Assembly (NCBI GenBank): GCA_025363555.1
Contig: JANYDQ010000372.1
Location: 1-56,591, forward strand
Origin: Bacteroidota bacterium
GTDB taxonomy: Bacteria > Bacteroidota > Bacteroidia > 2-12-FULL-35-15
Reading direction: 5' to 3'
Length of the DNA: 56,591 nucleotides
Shown: positions 8,346 to 56,212 of the stretch, piece by piece
How positions within the stretch are numbered: position 1 is the first letter of the stretch
How the letters are laid out: the number at the start of each line of letters is the position of its first letter
Program-made: the position numbers and the translations under genes
The notes under the pieces: model-generated
What the model saw: the letters and a program-made list of their open reading frames with translations, nothing else
Told to the model about the DNA's origin: nothing
Databases searched by the model: none

Positions 8346-9296
8346 CTACAACTTTTTCTCTATTTGGTAACGATTTCTATCGCCAGAACTGCGTGAAATC
8401 AATTCTCCCAGGAAGCCGGCAAGAAATAATTGAGTGCCGATAACCATGGCTATAAGTGCCAAATAAAATAATGGTTTATCGGTTACGTCTCGGGTGGGAA
8501 TATGATAATGTGACTTATATATCTTCTCTATGATCAAAATTAAGGAAACTATTCCGCCAAATAAAAATGAAAGTGTTCCCCATAATCCAAAAAAGTGCAT
8601 GGGGCGCTTTCCGAATTTGGAAACAAAGGTGATGGAAGTTAAGTCTAAAAAACCATTGATAAACCTTTCGATACCAAACTTTGTTTTTCCATATTTTCGT
8701 TCCTGATGGTGAACCACCTTTTCTTCTATCTTAGTAAATCCTGCCCACTTAGCAATAACAGGAATATAGCGGTGCATTTCGCCATATACTTCAATGTTTT
8801 TTACTACTTCCTTTTTATAAGCTTTCAGTCCGCAGTTAAAATCATGAAGATTGTTTATTCCGCTTGCTTTGCGTGTTGCCCAGTTAAATAGTTTGGTAGG
8901 AATTGTTTTTGTAATAGGGTCGTATCGTTTTTGTTTCCAGCCGGAAACCAAATCCAGCCCGTCATCAAAAATCATTTTATATAAACCAGGAATTTCATCG
9001 GGTGAGTCCTGCAAATCTGCATCCATGGTAATAACCACATCCCCCTGGGTAATTGCAAATCCTTCATTTAATGCAGCCGACTTGCCATAATTTCTTCTGA
9101 ACTTTATTCCTCTTATGTTTTTATTGTTTTCCGAAAGTTGCTCTATCACTTTCCATGAAGCATCTGTAGAACCATCGTCCACCAGGATAATTTCATAACT
9201 AAAATTATTGGCGAGCATAACCCGCTCAATCCACTGGCATAGTTCAGGCAAAGATTCTTCTTCGTTAAATAAAGGAATGACAACAGAAAGATTCAT
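8346..9296 (-). CDS. GT2 polyprenol-phosphate glycosyltransferase (ArnC/DPM1-like)
   Basis: LSVVIPLFNEEE, VDDGS, RNYGKSAAL, MDADLQD, GEMHRYIP, two C-terminal TMs. Start moved to ATG 9296, downstream of the -7 box. Confidence 0.92.
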   Translation of the reverse strand: MNLSVVIPLFNEEESLPELCQWIERVMLANNFSYEIILVDDGSTDASWKVIEQLSENNKNIRGIKFRRNYGKSAALNEGFAITQGDVVITMDADLQDSPDEIPGLYKMIFDDGLDLVSGWKQKRYDPITKTIPTKLFNWATRKASGINNLHDFNCGLKAYKKEVVKNIEVYGEMHRYIPVIAKWAGFTKIEEKVVHHQERKYGKTKFGIERFINGFLDLTSITFVSKFGKRPMHFFGLWGTLSFLFGGIVSLILIIEKIYKSHYHIPTRDVTDKPLFYLALIAMVIGTQLFLAGFLGELISRSSGDRNRYQIEKKL

Positions 9297-52305: not shown

Positions 52306-53445
52306 TTATTTTTGCCCTTCAGACGGCAACTCTATCATCTTAGCGGTTTTTGAATGCGATTCTAAAATGCGCATCAACTCTTTTTCTTCGGGAGCATAAC
52401 TGCTTTCATTGGGACCAGTTATTATTTTGTGGGATTCTTCGAAGTAATTAAAAAGCTGGTGAGTTTCATATAATTCCAATATCAGCGGATGAACGTAATG
52501 TTTCCTGCAAACTGTTCTTGTATTTCCAAGCCTCTTCCCCACTTCGTTCAGCACCTCCACTGTTTTATGTTTCATTTCCCTTTCCGTTTCAAAGTCGCCT
52601 ATGTCCTTGCAAATGGCAAGTGCATAACTTGTTCCGGTCCATGTTCTGAAATCTTTCGAAGAAAATTCAGCACCACTTATTTCCTGTATGTAATCGTTTA
52701 CCATCCCCGAATCGATGGGATGTCGTTTACCTGCATCGTCCAAAAACTGGAATAACTCTTTGCCCGGAATATCGAGGCACTTTTTTACAATCCCTGCCAG
52801 GCGTTTACTTTTTAATGAAATACTATGATGCACTCCTTTCTTTCCCTTAAACTCAAAGCGGATAGTGGTGCCTTTCACTTTCACATGCTTGTTTTTTAAA
52901 GTGGTGAGCCCAAAAGAACCATACAGTTTTTCATAAAGAGAATTCCCTATTCGTATAGAAGTACTTTCCATCAGCAACACCACTGTAGCCAGCACCTTTC
53001 TTACCTGCAACCCATGCTGCGCCATATCTTTTTCTAACTGCTGCCGGATGGCAGGCAGGTTTTTTCCAAACTCATATAACCTAAAATACTTTGTTTCGCT
53101 TCTCATTTTATTCCACAACGGATGATAGCGATATTGTTTGCGTCCTTTTACATCTATACCTGTTGCCTGCAAATGCCCGTTTTCTTTGGTACAAATCCAC
53201 ACCTGCTGCCAGGCAGGAGGAATAACCAGTTTTTTTATTCTCACTAACGTTTCCTTGTCTTCTATTTCTTTTTCATTCCAAAAATAACGAAAGTTCTTGC
53301 CGTTTTTTTTTCTCGTAATGCCTGCTTCCGGACTGCCAATATAGATAAGATGAAACAACCGGGCACTTTTTACGGGGTCGTTTGCCACCCGCACCAGGTT
53401 GCTTTTTTTTACCGCTGTTACTTCACTTGTTATATTATACATCAC
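52306..53445 (-). CDS. DNA topoisomerase IB (poxvirus-like bacterial family)
   Basis: IPPAW, GHLQATG, GRKQYRYHP. Catalytic set IRIGN, FKGKKG, KDFRTW, LGNT, CRKHYVHP all intact. Confidence 0.95.
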   Translation of the reverse strand: MMYNITSEVTAVKKSNLVRVANDPVKSARLFHLIYIGSPEAGITRKKNGKNFRYFWNEKEIEDKETLVRIKKLVIPPAWQQVWICTKENGHLQATGIDVKGRKQYRYHPLWNKMRSETKYFRLYEFGKNLPAIRQQLEKDMAQHGLQVRKVLATVVLLMESTSIRIGNSLYEKLYGSFGLTTLKNKHVKVKGTTIRFEFKGKKGVHHSISLKSKRLAGIVKKCLDIPGKELFQFLDDAGKRHPIDSGMVNDYIQEISGAEFSSKDFRTWTGTSYALAICKDIGDFETEREMKHKTVEVLNEVGKRLGNTRTVCRKHYVHPLILELYETHQLFNYFEESHKIITGPNESSYAPEEKELMRILESHSKTAKMIELPSEGQK

Positions 53446-53459
53446 CTGTTTTTTTTTAA

Positions 53460-53616
53460 TTTAATAATGCCCGGCAAATCATTTGCGACTAACGGAAGAC
53501 AGGCTCGTCTACCTATTCGTTGGTCATGGATAGAAGGTTGGAAAACACCCATGTTCCCGATGTCCGTTACGCCAACCTAACAAGCCGACAAACAACTCAC
53601 CAGGCACAATTAAAAC
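53460..53616 (-). ncRNA. Candidate structured RNA (5' leader of topoisomerase IB or stand-alone ncRNA), family not recognised
   Basis: Closing stem with 22 Watson-Crick and 8 G.U pairs, valid only on the minus strand. Inner stems UAACGGA/UCCGUUA and CAUGGGUG/UAUCCAUG. Loop CCAACCU is complementary to bulge AGGUUGG. Confidence 0.7.
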
Positions 53617-53622
53617 ACGATG

Positions 53623-53681
53623 CAAAGGTCTTTAACTTTGGGGAGTAGGGCGTTACATAACTTCTAATTAAAATTACATAA
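53623..53681 (-). promoter_or_regulatory. Putative activator-dependent promoter: -7-like GACCTTTG plus TTATGTAA direct repeat with 21-bp period
   Basis: caaaggtc at 53623-53630. ttacataa at 53653-53660 and 53674-53681. Confidence 0.55.
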
Positions 53682-53737
53682 TAAAATAAAACAGAGTTTA
53701 ATCAGAATTTTAGAATAATATTGCACCCTGAAAAATC

Positions 53738-56212
53738 ATGAGAACATTAGTTGCGTTTTTATTATTTATTTTTTCCATTTTTTTATCTCCTGCACAGACC
53801 GAAAACAAAGCACCGGGTAAAATATTCGGGAAAATTACTGACTCGCTTACCGCTGTGCCGGTGGAATATGCAACCATAGGTTTATTTTCACTAACTGAAA
53901 ACAAACTGGTGAATGGTACCACAGCCGACAGCACAGGTGATTTTACATTAACCAACGTTGCGGAAGGAACTTATAAAATAATGATTGAATTTATCGGGTA
54001 CAAAAAAACCGAAAAGAATAATATTGTTGTAAGTGATAAAAACCCCACCGTTATTCTCGGAGAAATTAAATTACCCGGCAGTGAAACTGCATTAAAAGAA
54101 GTAACTATTTCAATAGAAAAAAGCATTATTGAAAACAAAATTGATAAAATGATTTTTAATGTGGACAAAGACGTAACTTCTCAAAGCGGGGTAGCAGCCG
54201 ATGTGTTGAAAAAAGTGCCGCAGGTATCTGTGGATGTGGATGGAAACGTGGAACTGCAAGGCAATACCAACATTCGTTTTCTGATTGATGGAAAACCATC
54301 TGTACTTTTTGGAAACAATATTGTGGATGTTTTACAATCCATTCCTGCCAGTCAAATAAAAAGTATAGAAGTGATTACCAGCCCGGGTGCCAAATACGAT
54401 GCGGAAGGCACAGGAGGAATAATAAATATTATTCTAAAAAAAACCACTGCAAGGGGAATCAATGGAAATGTTTCTGTTTCAGCAGGAACACGTTTGGAAA
54501 ATGGTTCGTTTAATATCAATGCACGTAAAGGTAAGTGTGGTGTTCATGCTTTTGTAAGCGGCAATGCCCAACTACTTTCTACTACTGTTAACAGTTTAGA
54601 CCGCACCACACAGGATAGCGCATCTTCTTCTCACCTGTATCAAAGAGGAACAGGCAGTTTCAGCCGGAATGGTTACCAATCGGGCTTGGGTTTCGACTGG
54701 GACATCAATCCTAAAAATAATATTAATGCAACTGTGGGTTATAATTATTTTGCAAACAGCAATGTGGGGATGCTAAACCGTGAAACTACTTTATACCATG
54801 CCTTTGGCAACACCCTTTCTGATATCAACGACTCCATAAACACCACTTCTAAATTTCACGAACATTCTTACAATTATGATGTGAGCTTTAAAAAGAAATT
54901 TAAAAAAGAAGACCAGGAACTGGAAGCATCCGTTAATTCTTCCAGCGGAAATATGTACTATTTATACGAACAAACACAAAAGCATTTATTGCCTTCCGAA
55001 ATTTACAACAGTTCGCATGGCAACAATCCGGGCATTGAAAACGAAACAAACATTACTGTGAACTATACTCAACCGCTTACCAAAGATGCACTTCTTGAAA
55101 CAGGGGTAAAAAACGAACGCTATCACATCAATTCCACCTCTGATGTGTATATGCTCAACCCATCAACAGGGAATTATGATTATAACACCGCTCAATCTTC
55201 TCAAACAGATTATAACCGAAACGTATATGCTGCTTATGTTTCCGCTACTTTCAAATTGTTTAAATTTCTCGACCTTAAACTGGGAGTGCGCGATGAATAC
55301 ACCGAAGCAACTGCTAATTTCTCCAATTCGGGAATCGTTGTGATAAAACCTTATAACACCATTGTGCCATCCCTGGTTATTTCTCACACGTTTAAGAAAA
55401 AACAAACACTCAAAATAAGTTACAGCCATCGCATCGAACGTCCCGAATACCGAGACCTCAACTCGTTCATTAATGCTTCCGACCCTAAAAATGTTTCTAC
55501 CGGAAATCCAAACATCCGCCCCGAAATAGGCGATAAGATTGAACTTGGCTATAGCCAAACATTTACCAAAGGAACCACTATCAACCTCACTTTGTTTTAT
55601 CGTGGCAATATGGACGACATACAATCGTACACCCGGTATTATTCCACTTATAAAATTGGCGATTCCACTTATTCCAATGTGGCAGTTACTACCCGCGAAA
55701 ACATAGGGCGTGAAGACAATTTCGGACTTAACGTTTTTGCTTCCATCCCCATTACCCAAAAAATAAACATCCGCACCAATATCTCTGCCTTTCAGCGATA
55801 CATCACCACCGGGCTGCCCACAGGGGGCAATATACAGGGCTTTAACTACCGCGGAAATATTAATGCTTCCTGGCAGATAACTCCTACCTTAATAATAGAA
55901 GCATTTGGCAATTTTAATTCTCCCCGAATCAATGCACAGGGCACCATGCCGGCTAACCTTACTTATAATTTTGCTTTCCGCAAACAACTGTTTCATAAAA
56001 ACGGAAGTATAGCCATAACTGCCACCAATCCTTTCAACAAATACATAGAACAGAAAACCGAACTTACCGGGCAAAATTTTACTTCCACTACCATTCGCCA
56101 GTTGCCCTTCCGCTCTTTCGGTATTAATTTTACTTATAAATTCGGTAAAATGGAATTTAAAGGAGAAAAAGAAACGGAAGATGCGAACCTAACCAGCCCT
56201 CCCGGAAACTAA
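53738..56212 (+). CDS. TonB-dependent receptor / outer-membrane beta-barrel family protein with N-terminal carboxypeptidase-regulatory-like domain
   Basis: Signal peptide, GKITDS..PVEYATI, plug LKKVPQVSVD..IEVITSPGAKYDAEGTGGIINI, barrel GNPNIRPE, C-terminal FTYKFG. Confidence 0.9.
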   Translation: MRTLVAFLLFIFSIFLSPAQTENKAPGKIFGKITDSLTAVPVEYATIGLFSLTENKLVNGTTADSTGDFTLTNVAEGTYKIMIEFIGYKKTEKNNIVVSDKNPTVILGEIKLPGSETALKEVTISIEKSIIENKIDKMIFNVDKDVTSQSGVAADVLKKVPQVSVDVDGNVELQGNTNIRFLIDGKPSVLFGNNIVDVLQSIPASQIKSIEVITSPGAKYDAEGTGGIINIILKKTTARGINGNVSVSAGTRLENGSFNINARKGKCGVHAFVSGNAQLLSTTVNSLDRTTQDSASSSHLYQRGTGSFSRNGYQSGLGFDWDINPKNNINATVGYNYFANSNVGMLNRETTLYHAFGNTLSDINDSINTTSKFHEHSYNYDVSFKKKFKKEDQELEASVNSSSGNMYYLYEQTQKHLLPSEIYNSSHGNNPGIENETNITVNYTQPLTKDALLETGVKNERYHINSTSDVYMLNPSTGNYDYNTAQSSQTDYNRNVYAAYVSATFKLFKFLDLKLGVRDEYTEATANFSNSGIVVIKPYNTIVPSLVISHTFKKKQTLKISYSHRIERPEYRDLNSFINASDPKNVSTGNPNIRPEIGDKIELGYSQTFTKGTTINLTLFYRGNMDDIQSYTRYYSTYKIGDSTYSNVAVTTRENIGREDNFGLNVFASIPITQKINIRTNISAFQRYITTGLPTGGNIQGFNYRGNINASWQITPTLIIEAFGNFNSPRINAQGTMPANLTYNFAFRKQLFHKNGSIAITATNPFNKYIEQKTELTGQNFTSTTIRQLPFRSFGINFTYKFGKMEFKGEKETEDANLTSPPGN

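What the first reader, a model, noticed from the sequence alone, without database searches (positions are those of the whole stretch)
53460..53616. Unannotated pseudoknot-capable structured RNA directly upstream of topoisomerase IB
Seen (minus strand): 5' arm UUUAAUUGUGCCUGGUGAGUUGUUUGUCGGCU pairs with 3' arm AGUCGCAAAUGAUUUGCCGGGCAUUAUUAAA at 30 of 31 positions plus one bulged U. Eight pairs are G.U and would be A.C mismatches on the plus strand or in DNA, which points to selection on an RNA of this strand. Inside are UAACGGA/UCCGUUA, CGGG/CCUG and the hairpin CAUGGGUG-13nt-UAUCCAUG. Its loop CCAACCU (53541-53535) is exactly complementary to AGGUUGG (53578-53572) in a 13-nt side bulge. A -7-like box ends ~7 nt before the stem, so transcription would begin at its base, and the stem ends ~15 nt before the TopIB start. 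I recognise no riboswitch, ribozyme, SRP or tmRNA signature. Size and rod shape recall 6S RNA. Inference: a new cis-regulatory leader or an ncRNA partnered with TopIB.
Basis: partly seen in the sequence, partly recalled or inferred. Interest (0 to 1): 0.85.

Follow-up and report, generated by a model that had tools for sequence, protein, structure and literature searches.

The report
Known stress sRNA family beside TopIB
The hairpin-rich stretch upstream of the topoisomerase IB gene is a real, pseudoknotted small RNA, but it belongs to an already catalogued family of unknown function (Agrobacterium sRNA At1) that also turns up on plasmids and in phages and is not specific to topoisomerase.

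Summary
Window 53460-53616 (minus strand) folds into a rod closed by 30 of 31 pairs (8 G.U), and the two 7-nt loops are exactly complementary. It is not a new RNA class. Its core, 53485-53592(-), matches Rfam RF02496 (Atu_At1, "Rhizobiales sRNA") end to end at 70.6 bits against a cut-off of 60. At1 is a 113-115-nt stationary-phase sRNA of Agrobacterium with no assigned function (PMC3384568, passages read). In 97 distinct sequences from Alphaproteobacteria, Bacteroidota and uncultivated phage contigs, 94.8% of cells pair. The loop-loop pseudoknot pairs in 99.3% of cells, with compensatory changes at all 7 pairs. The family is patchy and mobile: 11 of 68 genomes of this genus, 34 of 101 in a Rhizobiaceae-level sample, 198 plasmid records and 26 viral contigs. 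Its neighbours differ from copy to copy, and the next gene downstream lies on either strand about equally often. In alphaproteobacteria a general-stress (EcfG-type) promoter motif precedes it. TopIB follows it only here and in one congener (G227). There it forms a two-gene module with no terminator, so TopIB is probably read through from the RNA's promoter. The RNA's function remains inferred. Verdict: new member of a known family, moderate interest.

The parts
53460..53616 (-). Whole RNA element: the long closing rod (extended P1) plus the pseudoknotted core, about 157 nt
   Evidence: Sequence. Fold -54.9 kcal/mol, z -3.24. Own covariance model R1 scores 103.8 bits at 53473-53604.
53485..53592 (-). 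Core matching Rfam RF02496 (Atu_At1), model positions 1-108 of 108
   Evidence: 70.6 bits against a gathering score of 60; E 8.2e-10 for the whole window.
53583..53614 (-). 5' arm of the extended P1 rod
   Evidence: Pairs with 53460-53490 at 30 of 31 positions, 8 of them G.U, with one bulged U. Among 19 Bacteroidota-type copies, 17 pair at least 20 bp between their flanks (median 28; shuffled control mean 10.5).
53460..53490 (-). 3' arm of the extended P1 rod. It is followed by an A-rich spacer, not by a U-tract.
   Evidence: The terminator scan found 0 sites in 53250-53800.
53572..53578 (-). AGGUUGG: loop L2, 5' strand of the kissing-loop pseudoknot
   Evidence: 7 pairs, all with changes on both sides, 99.3% of cells paired in 97 distinct sequences. 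40 different L2/L4 combinations were printed (one of them gapped), nearly all complementary.
53535..53541 (-). CCAACCU: loop L4, 3' strand of the pseudoknot
53525..53553 (-). P4 hairpin (CAUGGGUG ... UAUCCAUG) that carries loop L4
   Evidence: Rfam structure line. Main P4 helix 99.2% paired, with compensatory changes at all 5 of its pairs.
53511..53524 (-). P5 mini-hairpin with the conserved loop AACGAA
   Evidence: Caveat: these letters were fixed by my search pattern for loci L009-L127 and L159-L202.
52306..53445 (-). Topoisomerase IB gene. It starts 14 nt after the RNA and is probably co-transcribed with it.
   Evidence: Pfam PF01028 and PF21338. The same RNA-TopIB arrangement occurs in G227, where TopIB is 74% identical.
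53623..53681 (-). Upstream block conserved with G227: two TTATGTAA-type boxes (53674-53681 and 53653-53660) and a TTTG ending at 53623. Likely promoter or operator of the module.
   Evidence: Pairwise alignment of G000 and G227. TTATGTAA itself is not enriched in the window: 8 matches against 5.94 expected.

Best explanation
The element is a gene for a structured small RNA, a Bacteroidota member of Rfam family RF02496 (Atu_At1).

Shown:
- The core is a junction closed by P1 and holding P2, P3a/P3b, P4 and P5. A 7-bp kissing interaction between the loops of P2 and P4 locks it.
- All of this is kept by compensatory changes in Alphaproteobacteria, Bacteroidota and phage contigs.
- The family is an accessory, horizontally mobile RNA found on chromosomes in a patchy way, on many rhizobial and agrobacterial plasmids, and in uncultivated phages.
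- Its neighbours vary, and the next downstream gene lies on either strand.
- In Agrobacterium it is a discrete 113-115-nt RNA, strongest at high cell density (PMC3384568).
- Most alphaproteobacterial copies are preceded by a GGAAC-N-CGTT type motif (the EcfG general-stress promoter consensus, recalled from the literature).

Inferred:
- The RNA is made under stress or in stationary phase. It acts through its folded core, by binding a protein or small ligand, and not through a linear antisense seed.
- In this genome and in G227 the copy has no U-tract and abuts the TopIB start codon. TopIB is therefore transcribed from the RNA's promoter, with the RNA as a very stable 5' structure that may or may not be cut off.
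- The RNA thus ties TopIB, an accessory DNA-end enzyme that co-occurs with Ku in this genus, to the RNA's own expression programme. It is not a TopIB-specific sensor.

The confidence given (0.6) is for the whole reading. Identity as an RF02496-family structured RNA alone I put above 0.9; the mode of action is the uncertain part.
For: Identity:
- Rfam RF02496 scores 70.6 bits (cut-off 60) over model positions 1-108.
- My own model R1 scores 103.8 bits.

Structure:
- On 73 sequences, 93.1% of cells pair against 71.2% in shuffles and 34-48% with slid partners.
- On 97 distinct sequences, 94.8% pair against 69.4% in shuffles. The pseudoknot pairs at 99.3%, and all 7 of its pairs change on both sides.

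Stand-alone gene:
- One copy in G000.
- 11 of 68 genus genomes carry it, 14 copies in all.
- The nearest downstream gene is on the same strand in 10 and on the opposite strand in 8 Bacteroidota-type copies, and in 23 against 24 alphaproteobacterial copies (crude gene calls).
- Among 58 downstream ORFs, no Pfam family occurs more than twice.

Mobility:
- 198 plasmid records hold a match.
- 26 of 44 viral-contig pattern hits are true members at E 1.7e-17 or better.
- Terminase, portal and endolysin genes lie beside them.

Stress link:
- A strict GGAAC-N15-18-[CGA]GTT motif occurs in 24 of 54 alphaproteobacterial copies (background 0.0067 per window).
- A relaxed motif ending 5-15 nt before the core occurs in 44 of 54 (background 0.0125).
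- At1 is strongest at high optical density.

TopIB module:
- The RNA lies directly upstream of TopIB in G000 and in G227.
- The G227 flanks differ: an RlmF-like methyltransferase and a Por-tail protein, against a TonB-dependent receptor and DHDPS here.
- The gaps are 14 nt and about 20 nt, with no terminator.
Against: - No transcript data exist for this organism. No RNA run holds the stretch, so the start, the end and co-transcription with TopIB are all untested.
- No partner protein or ligand was found. Ku is present in 5 of 11 genomes with the RNA and in 17 of 57 without it. TROVE/Ro is present in 0 of 11 genomes with the RNA.
- The Bacteroidota promoter is only a weak -7-like TTTG. The EcfG-type motif is not evident here.
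- The orientation counts rest on crude ORF calls in high-GC DNA.
- The RNA-TopIB arrangement is seen in two related genomes only and may be a single evolutionary event.
- In A. fabrum pAt, At1 also lies 50 nt upstream of a gene on the same strand, ligD. A leader role in some copies is therefore not excluded.
Confidence: 0.6

Rival explanations
1. A cis-regulatory leader (riboswitch-like or thermosensor) that controls TopIB.
For: The RNA is 14 nt from the TopIB start, with no terminator between them. The arrangement is kept in G227 in different flanks. The compact pseudoknotted core with conserved unpaired letters looks like an aptamer. At1 lies 50 nt upstream of ligD in A. fabrum.
Against: Only 2 of 14 genus copies lie by TopIB, and the TopIB genes of the 51-57%-identity clade (plus one fragment) have no copy upstream (best E 0.51). 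The downstream gene lies on either strand about equally often. Downstream families are heterogeneous. By my reading of the sequences printed, 9 of 19 Bacteroidota copies end in a run of 5 or more T. At1 is a discrete 113-115-nt RNA. I found no alternative pairing that masks the start codon within the likely transcript (inference).
Confidence: 0.12
2. A classical trans-acting base-pairing sRNA of a stress regulon, like GsrN, that uses one of the conserved single-stranded stretches as a seed.
For: It is a stand-alone gene with a stress-type promoter in alphaproteobacteria. Expression is growth-phase dependent. EcfG-dependent sRNAs are known (GsrN, PMC5869019, passages read).
Against: Almost the whole molecule is locked in helices that covary across phyla. 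The unpaired letters are nearly the same in Alphaproteobacteria, Bacteroidota and phages, which is unusual for a seed against host-specific mRNAs. Part of this conservation was imposed by my search pattern. GsrN has a different architecture and genomic position. At1 does not occur in the main text of the Agrobacterium Hfq study PMC4201532 (supplements not seen).
Confidence: 0.15
It would serve phage or plasmid biology (packaging, DNA-end handling, counter-defence), and the chromosomal copies would be domesticated or left behind.
For: 26 viral contigs carry it. In 9 of 26 viral loci the terminase large subunit lies 0.2-2 kb downstream on the same strand. In 3 loci it abuts a tRNA-Met, and in 3 more it lies in or next to tRNA arrays. 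198 plasmid records hold it. Its neighbours include ligD, TopIB and a phage exonuclease.
Against: Nothing tells intra- from intermolecular pairing. Terminase proximity holds for three phage lineages only. In another lineage the RNA sits after a lysis-side gene, convergent with an endolysin gene. No Rfam pRNA match was found. The chromosomal copies in alphaproteobacteria have host stress promoters. Three queries found no match in 50,697 cultured-phage records.
Confidence: 0.1
4. A self-cleaving ribozyme or another catalytic RNA.
For: Compact pseudoknotted fold, patchy distribution, presence in phages and directly after a tRNA gene.
Against: No Rfam ribozyme family matched at E up to 10. Table 2 of PMC3384568 lists a single 115-nt Northern size for At1, equal to the dRNA-seq size, with no second band.
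Confidence: 0.03
5. A DNA-level inverted repeat or MITE with no RNA function.
For: Long terminal inverted repeat (31 bp).
Against: Single copy in the genome. 8 G.U pairs would be A.C on the other strand. The two strands fold unequally. Compensatory changes include G.U intermediates. An RNA of this family has been detected.
Confidence: 0.01

Closest known systems
Rfam RF02496, Atu_At1 (Agrobacterium sRNA At1; Wilms et al. 2012, PMC3384568)
   Same: The full-length model match lies above the curated cut-off. The helices P1-P5 and the conserved junction letters are the same. It is a stand-alone small RNA.
   Different: The host phylum is Bacteroidota, not Rhizobiales. P1 is extended to about 31 bp, giving about 157 nt instead of 113-115 nt. 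There is no EcfG-type promoter motif. It is fused to a TopIB gene. The L2-L4 pseudoknot does not appear in the structure line printed by cmscan, so I cannot tell whether Rfam annotates it.
GsrN and other EcfG-dependent sRNAs of Alphaproteobacteria (PMC5869019)
   Same: A small RNA under a general-stress promoter in alphaproteobacteria (inferred here from the motif).
   Different: GsrN has an exposed C-rich loop that pairs with mRNAs, and it usually lies next to the ecfG-nepR-phyR locus (passages). The present RNA is almost fully structured, has variable neighbours, and also occurs outside Alphaproteobacteria.
Purine-riboswitch-type aptamers (P1-closed junction held by a loop-loop interaction). 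Architecture recalled, not tested.
   Same: A closing P1, a multi-helix junction with conserved unpaired letters, and a loop-loop tertiary contact.
   Different: No Rfam riboswitch match. There is no consistent downstream gene or expression platform. The loop-loop helix is 7 Watson-Crick pairs of freely varying sequence.
phi29 pRNA (packaging RNA). Recalled.
   Same: About 120-170 nt, paired 5' and 3' ends, two complementary loops, phage-borne, near packaging genes in some phages.
   Different: No Rfam match to the pRNA family. Most copies are bacterial or on plasmids. Intermolecular pairing is untested.
6S RNA, 6S-Flavo and Bacteroidales-1
   Same: Rod-like outline through pairing of the 5' and 3' ends.
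   Different: No match at E up to 10. The middle is a branched pseudoknotted core, not an open-promoter-like bubble. 6S RNA is a core gene in the genomes that have it (recalled), whereas this RNA is present in only 11 of 68 genus genomes.

Membership tests
Rfam RF02496 Atu_At1 | Covariance-model score at or above the curated gathering score (60 bits) | tested here: met
   70.6 bits; E 8.2e-10 for the window and 1.5e-11 per genome.
Rfam RF02496 Atu_At1 | Full-length alignment to the model, with all helices formed | tested here: met
   Model positions 1-108 of 108 without truncation. P1, P3a, P3b, P4 and P5 pair in the window sequence.
Rfam RF02496 Atu_At1 | Helices kept by compensatory change between this copy and the rhizobial copies | tested here: met
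   29 of 33 pairs change on both sides; 94.8% of cells pair.
Rfam RF02496 Atu_At1 | Expressed as a discrete small RNA | not testable with these tools
   Shown for A. tumefaciens only (113 nt by dRNA-seq, 115 nt by Northern). No RNA run was listed for this window.
6S RNA (including 6S-Flavo and Bacteroidales-1) | Match to an Rfam 6S-type model | tested here: not met
   At E up to 10 only Atu_At1, snoR25, BSnc120 and CrcZ were listed for 53300-53800, the last three at E 9-10.
Riboswitch or cis-regulatory leader | Consistent position upstream of, and on the same strand as, the regulated gene(s) | tested here: not met
   Downstream gene on the same strand in 10 and the opposite strand in 8 Bacteroidota-type copies, and 23 against 24 in alphaproteobacteria (crude gene calls). 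At most 2 of 58 downstream ORFs share a Pfam family.
Y RNA (Ro/Rsr-associated) | Co-occurrence with a TROVE-domain (Ro60/Rsr) protein, or a match to an Rfam Y RNA or YrlA model | tested here: not met
   TROVE occurs in 3 of 68 genus genomes, none of them among the 11 with the RNA. No Rfam Y RNA match.
MITE | Many dispersed copies in one genome | tested here: not met
   1 copy in G000. At most 3 per genome in the genus and 4 in the Rhizobiaceae-level sample.
phi29-type pRNA | Intermolecular loop-loop pairing into a ring on the portal | not testable with these tools
   Only the complementarity of the loops is shown. No Rfam pRNA match.

The most novel reading that the evidence does not exclude
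The 'Rhizobiales sRNA' At1 may in fact be a cross-phylum structured RNA carried by phages and plasmids. It would work in the biology of mobile DNA or of DNA ends. Suggestive neighbours are terminase in three phage lineages, ligD on pAt, and TopIB here. The chromosomal copies under stress promoters would be domesticated versions.
Probability: 0.12. Interest if true: 0.8.

Novelty: new member of a known kind. Interest (0 to 1): 0.45.

Why it matters
**For this window.** The region can be annotated as an Atu_At1-family ncRNA. The claim of a new TopIB riboregulator should be dropped.

**For the family.**
- An sRNA filed as a Rhizobiales curiosity shows the marks of a functional tertiary-structured RNA: a covarying 7-bp kissing loop and near-constant junction letters.
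- It occurs in a second phylum, on about 200 plasmid records and in uncultivated phages.
- In alphaproteobacteria it sits behind general-stress promoter motifs.
- This places it among the orphan structured RNAs worth an experiment. A tractable organism (Agrobacterium) and a known transcript are already at hand.

**For TopIB.** The local fusion to TopIB, together with the co-occurrence of TopIB and Ku in this genus, hints that bacterial TopIB belongs to a stationary-phase DNA-end repair set.

Tried and rejected
- **Ku as partner.** Ku (PF02735) is present in 22 of 68 genus genomes: 5 of the 11 with the RNA and 17 of the 57 without it. This is no useful association, so the idea was rejected.
- **Ro/TROVE as partner (Y-RNA idea).** TROVE occurs in 3 of 68 genomes, none of them with the RNA. 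Rejected.
- **A single conserved neighbour gene.** blastp clustering of flanking ORFs gave only synteny groups of close relatives. Pfam on 58 downstream ORFs gave no family in more than 2 of them.
- **A divergent copy upstream of the other TopIB genes.** The model search gave a best E of 0.51.
- **Expression data.** No RNA holder was listed for window:53250-53750. There were four DNA runs of one study, two of them possibly the source.
- **Cultured phages.** Three viral-copy queries found no match among 50,697 phage records.
- **Literature.** Full-text searches for 'Atu_At1' and 'RF02496' found 0 papers. 'topoisomerase IB' + 'RNA motif' + 'bacteria' found 0. The phage structured-RNA search listed 12 of 27 papers; none was opened and I saw nothing on this RNA in the listing. 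The SuhB preprint and the GsrN paper concern other RNAs.
- **Supplements are closed.** Table S4 of PMC3384568 and the Hfq RIP-seq tables of PMC4201532 may bear on At1 and were not seen.
- **Measures of the rod that failed.** duplexfold without constraints over-extended. My X-drop extension was too lenient, so shuffles scored alike. The automatic 'U-tract after the stem' count was confounded because the U-run often pairs with an upstream A-run. The figure of 9 of 19 copies with a distal T-run is my by-eye reading.
- **The TTATGTAA repeat.** It is not enriched in the window: 8 matches against 5.94 expected, and 23 of 100 shuffles reach 8.
- **Alphaproteobacterial class sample.** It gave 0 of 150 other genomes. 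Only 23 candidates per genome were scored, so this is a weak negative.
- **Search biases.** I dropped 55 of the 119 loci as chance hits using a second regex and then confirmed the rest with model R1. The taxonomic range seen through the pattern is biased, and the 16 letters of the pattern are invariant by construction in L009-L127 and L159-L202.
- **Unpublished genome.** G201 is flagged unpublished. It is one of the 68 genomes in the counts (TopIB and Ku present, RNA absent) and one of the Ku-TopIB neighbour cases. No other claim rests on it.
Full report
**1. The observation**

- A script confirmed that the 32-nt 5' arm (53614-53583) pairs with the 31-nt 3' arm (53490-53460) at 30 of 31 positions. 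Eight pairs are G.U and one U is bulged.
- The inner helices are present: UAACGGA/UCCGUUA, CGGG/CCUG and CAUGGGUG-13 nt-UAUCCAUG.
- CCAACCU (53541-53535) is the exact complement of AGGUUGG (53578-53572).
- The minus strand folds to -54.9 kcal/mol (z -3.24; 0 of 200 shuffles as good). The plus strand folds to -38.1 kcal/mol (z -2.04; 5 of 200).
- The ORF 52306-53445(-) begins 14 nt after the stem and is a topoisomerase IB (Pfam PF01028 at 1.8e-35, PF21338 at 1.4e-21).
- A TonB-dependent-receptor-like gene diverges upstream (53738-56212, +). A DHDPS-family gene converges downstream.

**2. Identity**

cmscan of the whole window against Rfam 15 at gathering thresholds gave exactly one match. It is RF02496, Atu_At1 ('Rhizobiales sRNA'), at 53485-53592(-), 70.6 bits against a cut-off of 60, over model positions 1-108 of 108.

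At E up to 10 on 53300-53800 the only other rows were chance-level, at E 9-10 and far under their cut-offs. No 6S-type, riboswitch, ribozyme, Y RNA or pRNA family appeared.

At1 was described by Wilms et al. 2012 (PMC3384568; I read the passages found by term search).
- It lies on the At plasmid at 55274-55161.
- It measures 113 nt by dRNA-seq and 115 nt on Northern blots.
- It is among the sRNAs strongest at high optical density.
- Homologues were noted in other alphaproteobacteria.
- No function was given in the passages read.

Full-text searches for 'Atu_At1' and 'RF02496' found no paper.

**3. Relatives and structure**

How the set was collected:
- The Rfam model found one copy in the window's own genome.
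- It found copies in 11 of 68 genomes of the genus, G000 included: 14 copies, 8 genomes above the cut-off.
- It found copies in 2 of 150 other genomes drawn from the phylum.
- A 20-letter degenerate pattern from the most conserved stretch was scanned over genome contigs. About half were chance hits inside genes. The rest were true members from Rhizobium, Agrobacterium, Ensifer, Mesorhizobium, Devosia, Shinella, Sphingomonas, Sphingopyxis, a Caulobacteraceae MAG, Pseudooceanicola and three Bacteroidota MAGs.

On a MAFFT alignment of 73 distinct sequences (A1), the Rfam helices plus the loop-loop helix pair in 93.1% of cells. Shuffles give 71.2% and slid partners 34-48%.

I built a covariance model without the pseudoknot (R1) and re-aligned 99 matches, viral ones included (A3). 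On its 97 distinct rows:
- 94.8% of cells pair, against 69.4% in shuffles.
- 29 of 33 pairs change on both sides.
- The pseudoknot, which the model did not know about, pairs in 99.3% of cells, with double changes at all 7 pairs.
- 40 different L2/L4 letter combinations were printed (one of them gapped), almost all perfectly complementary. Examples are AGGUUGG/CCAACCU, AACCGGA/UCCGGUU, AAGCCAC/GUGGCUU and AACGUGA/UCACGUU.

Caveats:
- The sequences are related to each other.
- The 16 letters of my pattern are invariant by construction in the loci found with it.

The resulting anatomy: P1 closes a junction that carries P2 (loop L2) and P3a/P3b. P3 encloses P4 (loop L4) and the mini-hairpin P5. 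L2 kisses L4.

**4. The long rod**

I folded each member with 45-nt flanks. Among the 19 Bacteroidota-type copies, 17 pair at least 20 bp between the flanks (median 28; shuffled 3' flank mean 10.5). The alphaproteobacterial copies have a median of 17.

The 31-bp rod of the window is thus the Bacteroidota form of P1. By my reading of the sequences printed, 9 of the 19 copies end in a run of 5 or more T. The window's copy and that of G227 do not. My automatic count of this feature was confounded.

**5. Is it tied to TopIB?**

Mostly not.
- TopIB occurs in 13 of 68 genus genomes.
- The RNA lies directly upstream of TopIB only in G000 and G227. Their TopIB proteins are 74% identical to each other and 51-57% identical to most of the others.
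- Model R1 found nothing upstream of the other TopIB genes: best E 0.51, at an unrelated place.
- tblastn found no TopIB in any other RNA locus: 202 loci searched, with hits only in the window, G227 and the loci fetched as TopIB.
- Other copies in the genus lie by a FAD oxidoreductase, DUF748, fasciclin, aldehyde dehydrogenase, CsbD, an outer-membrane protein or NorB.
- Across 58 downstream ORFs no Pfam family occurs more than twice.
- With crude gene calls, the next downstream gene is on the same strand in 10 and the opposite strand in 8 Bacteroidota-type copies, and in 23 against 24 alphaproteobacterial copies.

This is the pattern of an independent gene, not of a leader.

The RNA-TopIB pair is nevertheless a module.
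- In G227 it sits between an RlmF-like RNA methyltransferase gene and a Por-secretion-tail protein gene.
- There is no homologue of the window's flanking genes within the stretch held.
- Conservation between the two genomes begins about 95 nt upstream of the RNA. It covers two ATGTAA-type boxes and a TTTG 8 nt before the stem, and it runs through the RNA.
- In both genomes the start codon follows the 3' arm closely (14 nt here, about 20 nt in G227) without a U-tract or terminator.

I infer read-through transcription of TopIB from the RNA's promoter. This is not shown.

**6. Expression context elsewhere**

In 24 of 54 alphaproteobacterial copies a strict GGAAC-N15-18-[CGA]GTT motif lies within 90 nt upstream (background 0.0067 per window). 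A relaxed form ends 5-15 nt before the Rfam core in 44 of 54 (background 0.0125).

The consensus of the EcfG general-stress sigma factor is recalled from the literature, not taken from a call. The placement would start transcription at the base of P1. This agrees with the 113-nt At1 and with its accumulation at high density.

GsrN, the known EcfG-dependent sRNA, differs in architecture and locus (passages of PMC5869019).

On pAt of A. fabrum C58, At1 lies 50 nt upstream of ligD on the same strand.

**7. Mobility**

- blastn of At1 found matches in 198 plasmid records: Agrobacterium 117, Rhizobium 43, Ensifer 10 and others.
- A Rhizobiaceae-level sample centred on an Ensifer genome had the RNA in 34 of 101 genomes, with up to 4 copies.
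- An even draw from the class had it in 0 of 150 others. This is a weak negative, because only 23 candidates per genome were scored.
- The same pattern scanned over IMG/VR gave 44 loci. R1 confirms 26 of them (72-112 bits, E 1.7e-17 or better; 21 distinct sequences).
- These are phage contigs. PHROGs names terminase large subunit, portal or adaptor, endolysin, DNA transfer protein and exonuclease beside the RNA.
- In 9 of 26 viral loci (three lineages by blastp clustering) the terminase large subunit lies 0.2-2 kb downstream on the same strand.
- In another lineage the RNA follows the last gene of a rightward block and faces an endolysin gene.
- In 3 loci a tRNA-Met ends within a few bases of P1 on the same strand. 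In 3 more the RNA lies in or next to tRNA arrays.
- Three of the viral copies found no match among cultured phage records.

**8. Partner tests**

- Ku is not associated with the RNA: 5 of 11 genomes with the RNA have Ku, against 17 of 57 without it.
- TROVE/Ro is absent from all 11 genomes with the RNA.
- No RNA-seq run holds the window.

**9. Reading**

*Shown:* the element is a true structured RNA of family RF02496, with a strongly covarying kissing-loop pseudoknot. The family is accessory, mobile and context-independent. The window's copy forms a conserved module with TopIB.

*Inferred:* stress or stationary-phase expression; action through the folded core and not through a seed; TopIB riding on the RNA's promoter.

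*Rivals* (a TopIB leader, a base-pairing sRNA, a mobile-element RNA with intermolecular kissing, a ribozyme, a MITE) are weighed in their own sections.

*Novelty:* a new member of a known family, in a new phylum and with a long P1.

*Of wider interest:* an 'Agrobacterium sRNA' turns out to be a cross-phylum RNA borne by phages and plasmids, with the marks of tertiary-structure function.

Noticed in passing
genus genomes, e.g. G203:C102:11193-13293, G202:C17:11596-13588, G231:C62:38-1781: TopIB co-occurs with Ku in this genus. 11 of 13 genomes with TopIB have Ku, against 11 of 55 without TopIB. In three genomes the two genes lie within about 0.5 kb of each other, and in G201 (unpublished) 2.6 kb apart. 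TopIB may belong to an accessory end-joining or DNA-end repair set.
   Followed up: partly
L151 (NC_003064.2, pAt of A. fabrum C58) 52456-55274: The founding member At1 (55274-55161, minus) lies 50 nt upstream of ligD (DNA ligase D) on the same strand. This is a second case of the RNA directly preceding a DNA-end enzyme gene.
   Followed up: partly
window 53653-53681 (-) and L150 about 8840-8880 (-): Two ATGTAA-type boxes about 21 nt apart (TTATGTAA ... TTATGTAAC here; AATGTAAT ... TTTGTAAC in G227) are conserved upstream of the RNA in both genomes although the flanking genes differ. They may be an operator or promoter element. The 8-mer is not enriched in the window.
   Followed up: partly
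L202:430-620, L176:4000-4194, L200:2784-2978: In one phage lineage a tRNA-Met gene ends within a few bases of the RNA's P1 on the same strand, and the terminase large subunit follows 0.2-0.6 kb downstream. The RNA could be released by tRNA processing.
   Followed up: partly
L164:5180-5397 and L171:10048-10265: A large-phage contig with 21-23 tRNA genes carries the RNA abutting a tRNA-Ser gene, but on the opposite strand to the tRNA array.
   Followed up: no
L005/L006 (G022:C191) 285-391 and 1159-1265: Two copies of the RNA about 870 nt apart on the same strand flank a fasciclin-domain gene. An aldehyde dehydrogenase gene follows the second copy. G022 has three copies in all.
   Followed up: no
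L004, L010, L129, L130, L133 (3' arms of the rod): A subgroup of Bacteroidota copies shares nearly the same outer arm sequences (GAAAUUCUGUUUGGU... / ...ACUAAACAGAAUUU) and a purine-rich asymmetric internal loop (such as UUAGGAAAGGGAUG) in the 3' arm. The conservation goes beyond what pairing alone requires.
   Followed up: no
L034:1231-1279: A partial match (model positions 52-100, 38.4 bits) lies about 1.9 kb upstream of the full copy in a Taklimakanibacter contig. It may be a decayed second copy.
   Followed up: no
L134 (G214:C78:11563-11671): One copy in the Bacteroidota genus has an alphaproteobacterial-style kissing loop (AAGCCGG/CCGGCUU) instead of the AGGUUGG type. This is compatible with transfer between lineages.
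   Followed up: no
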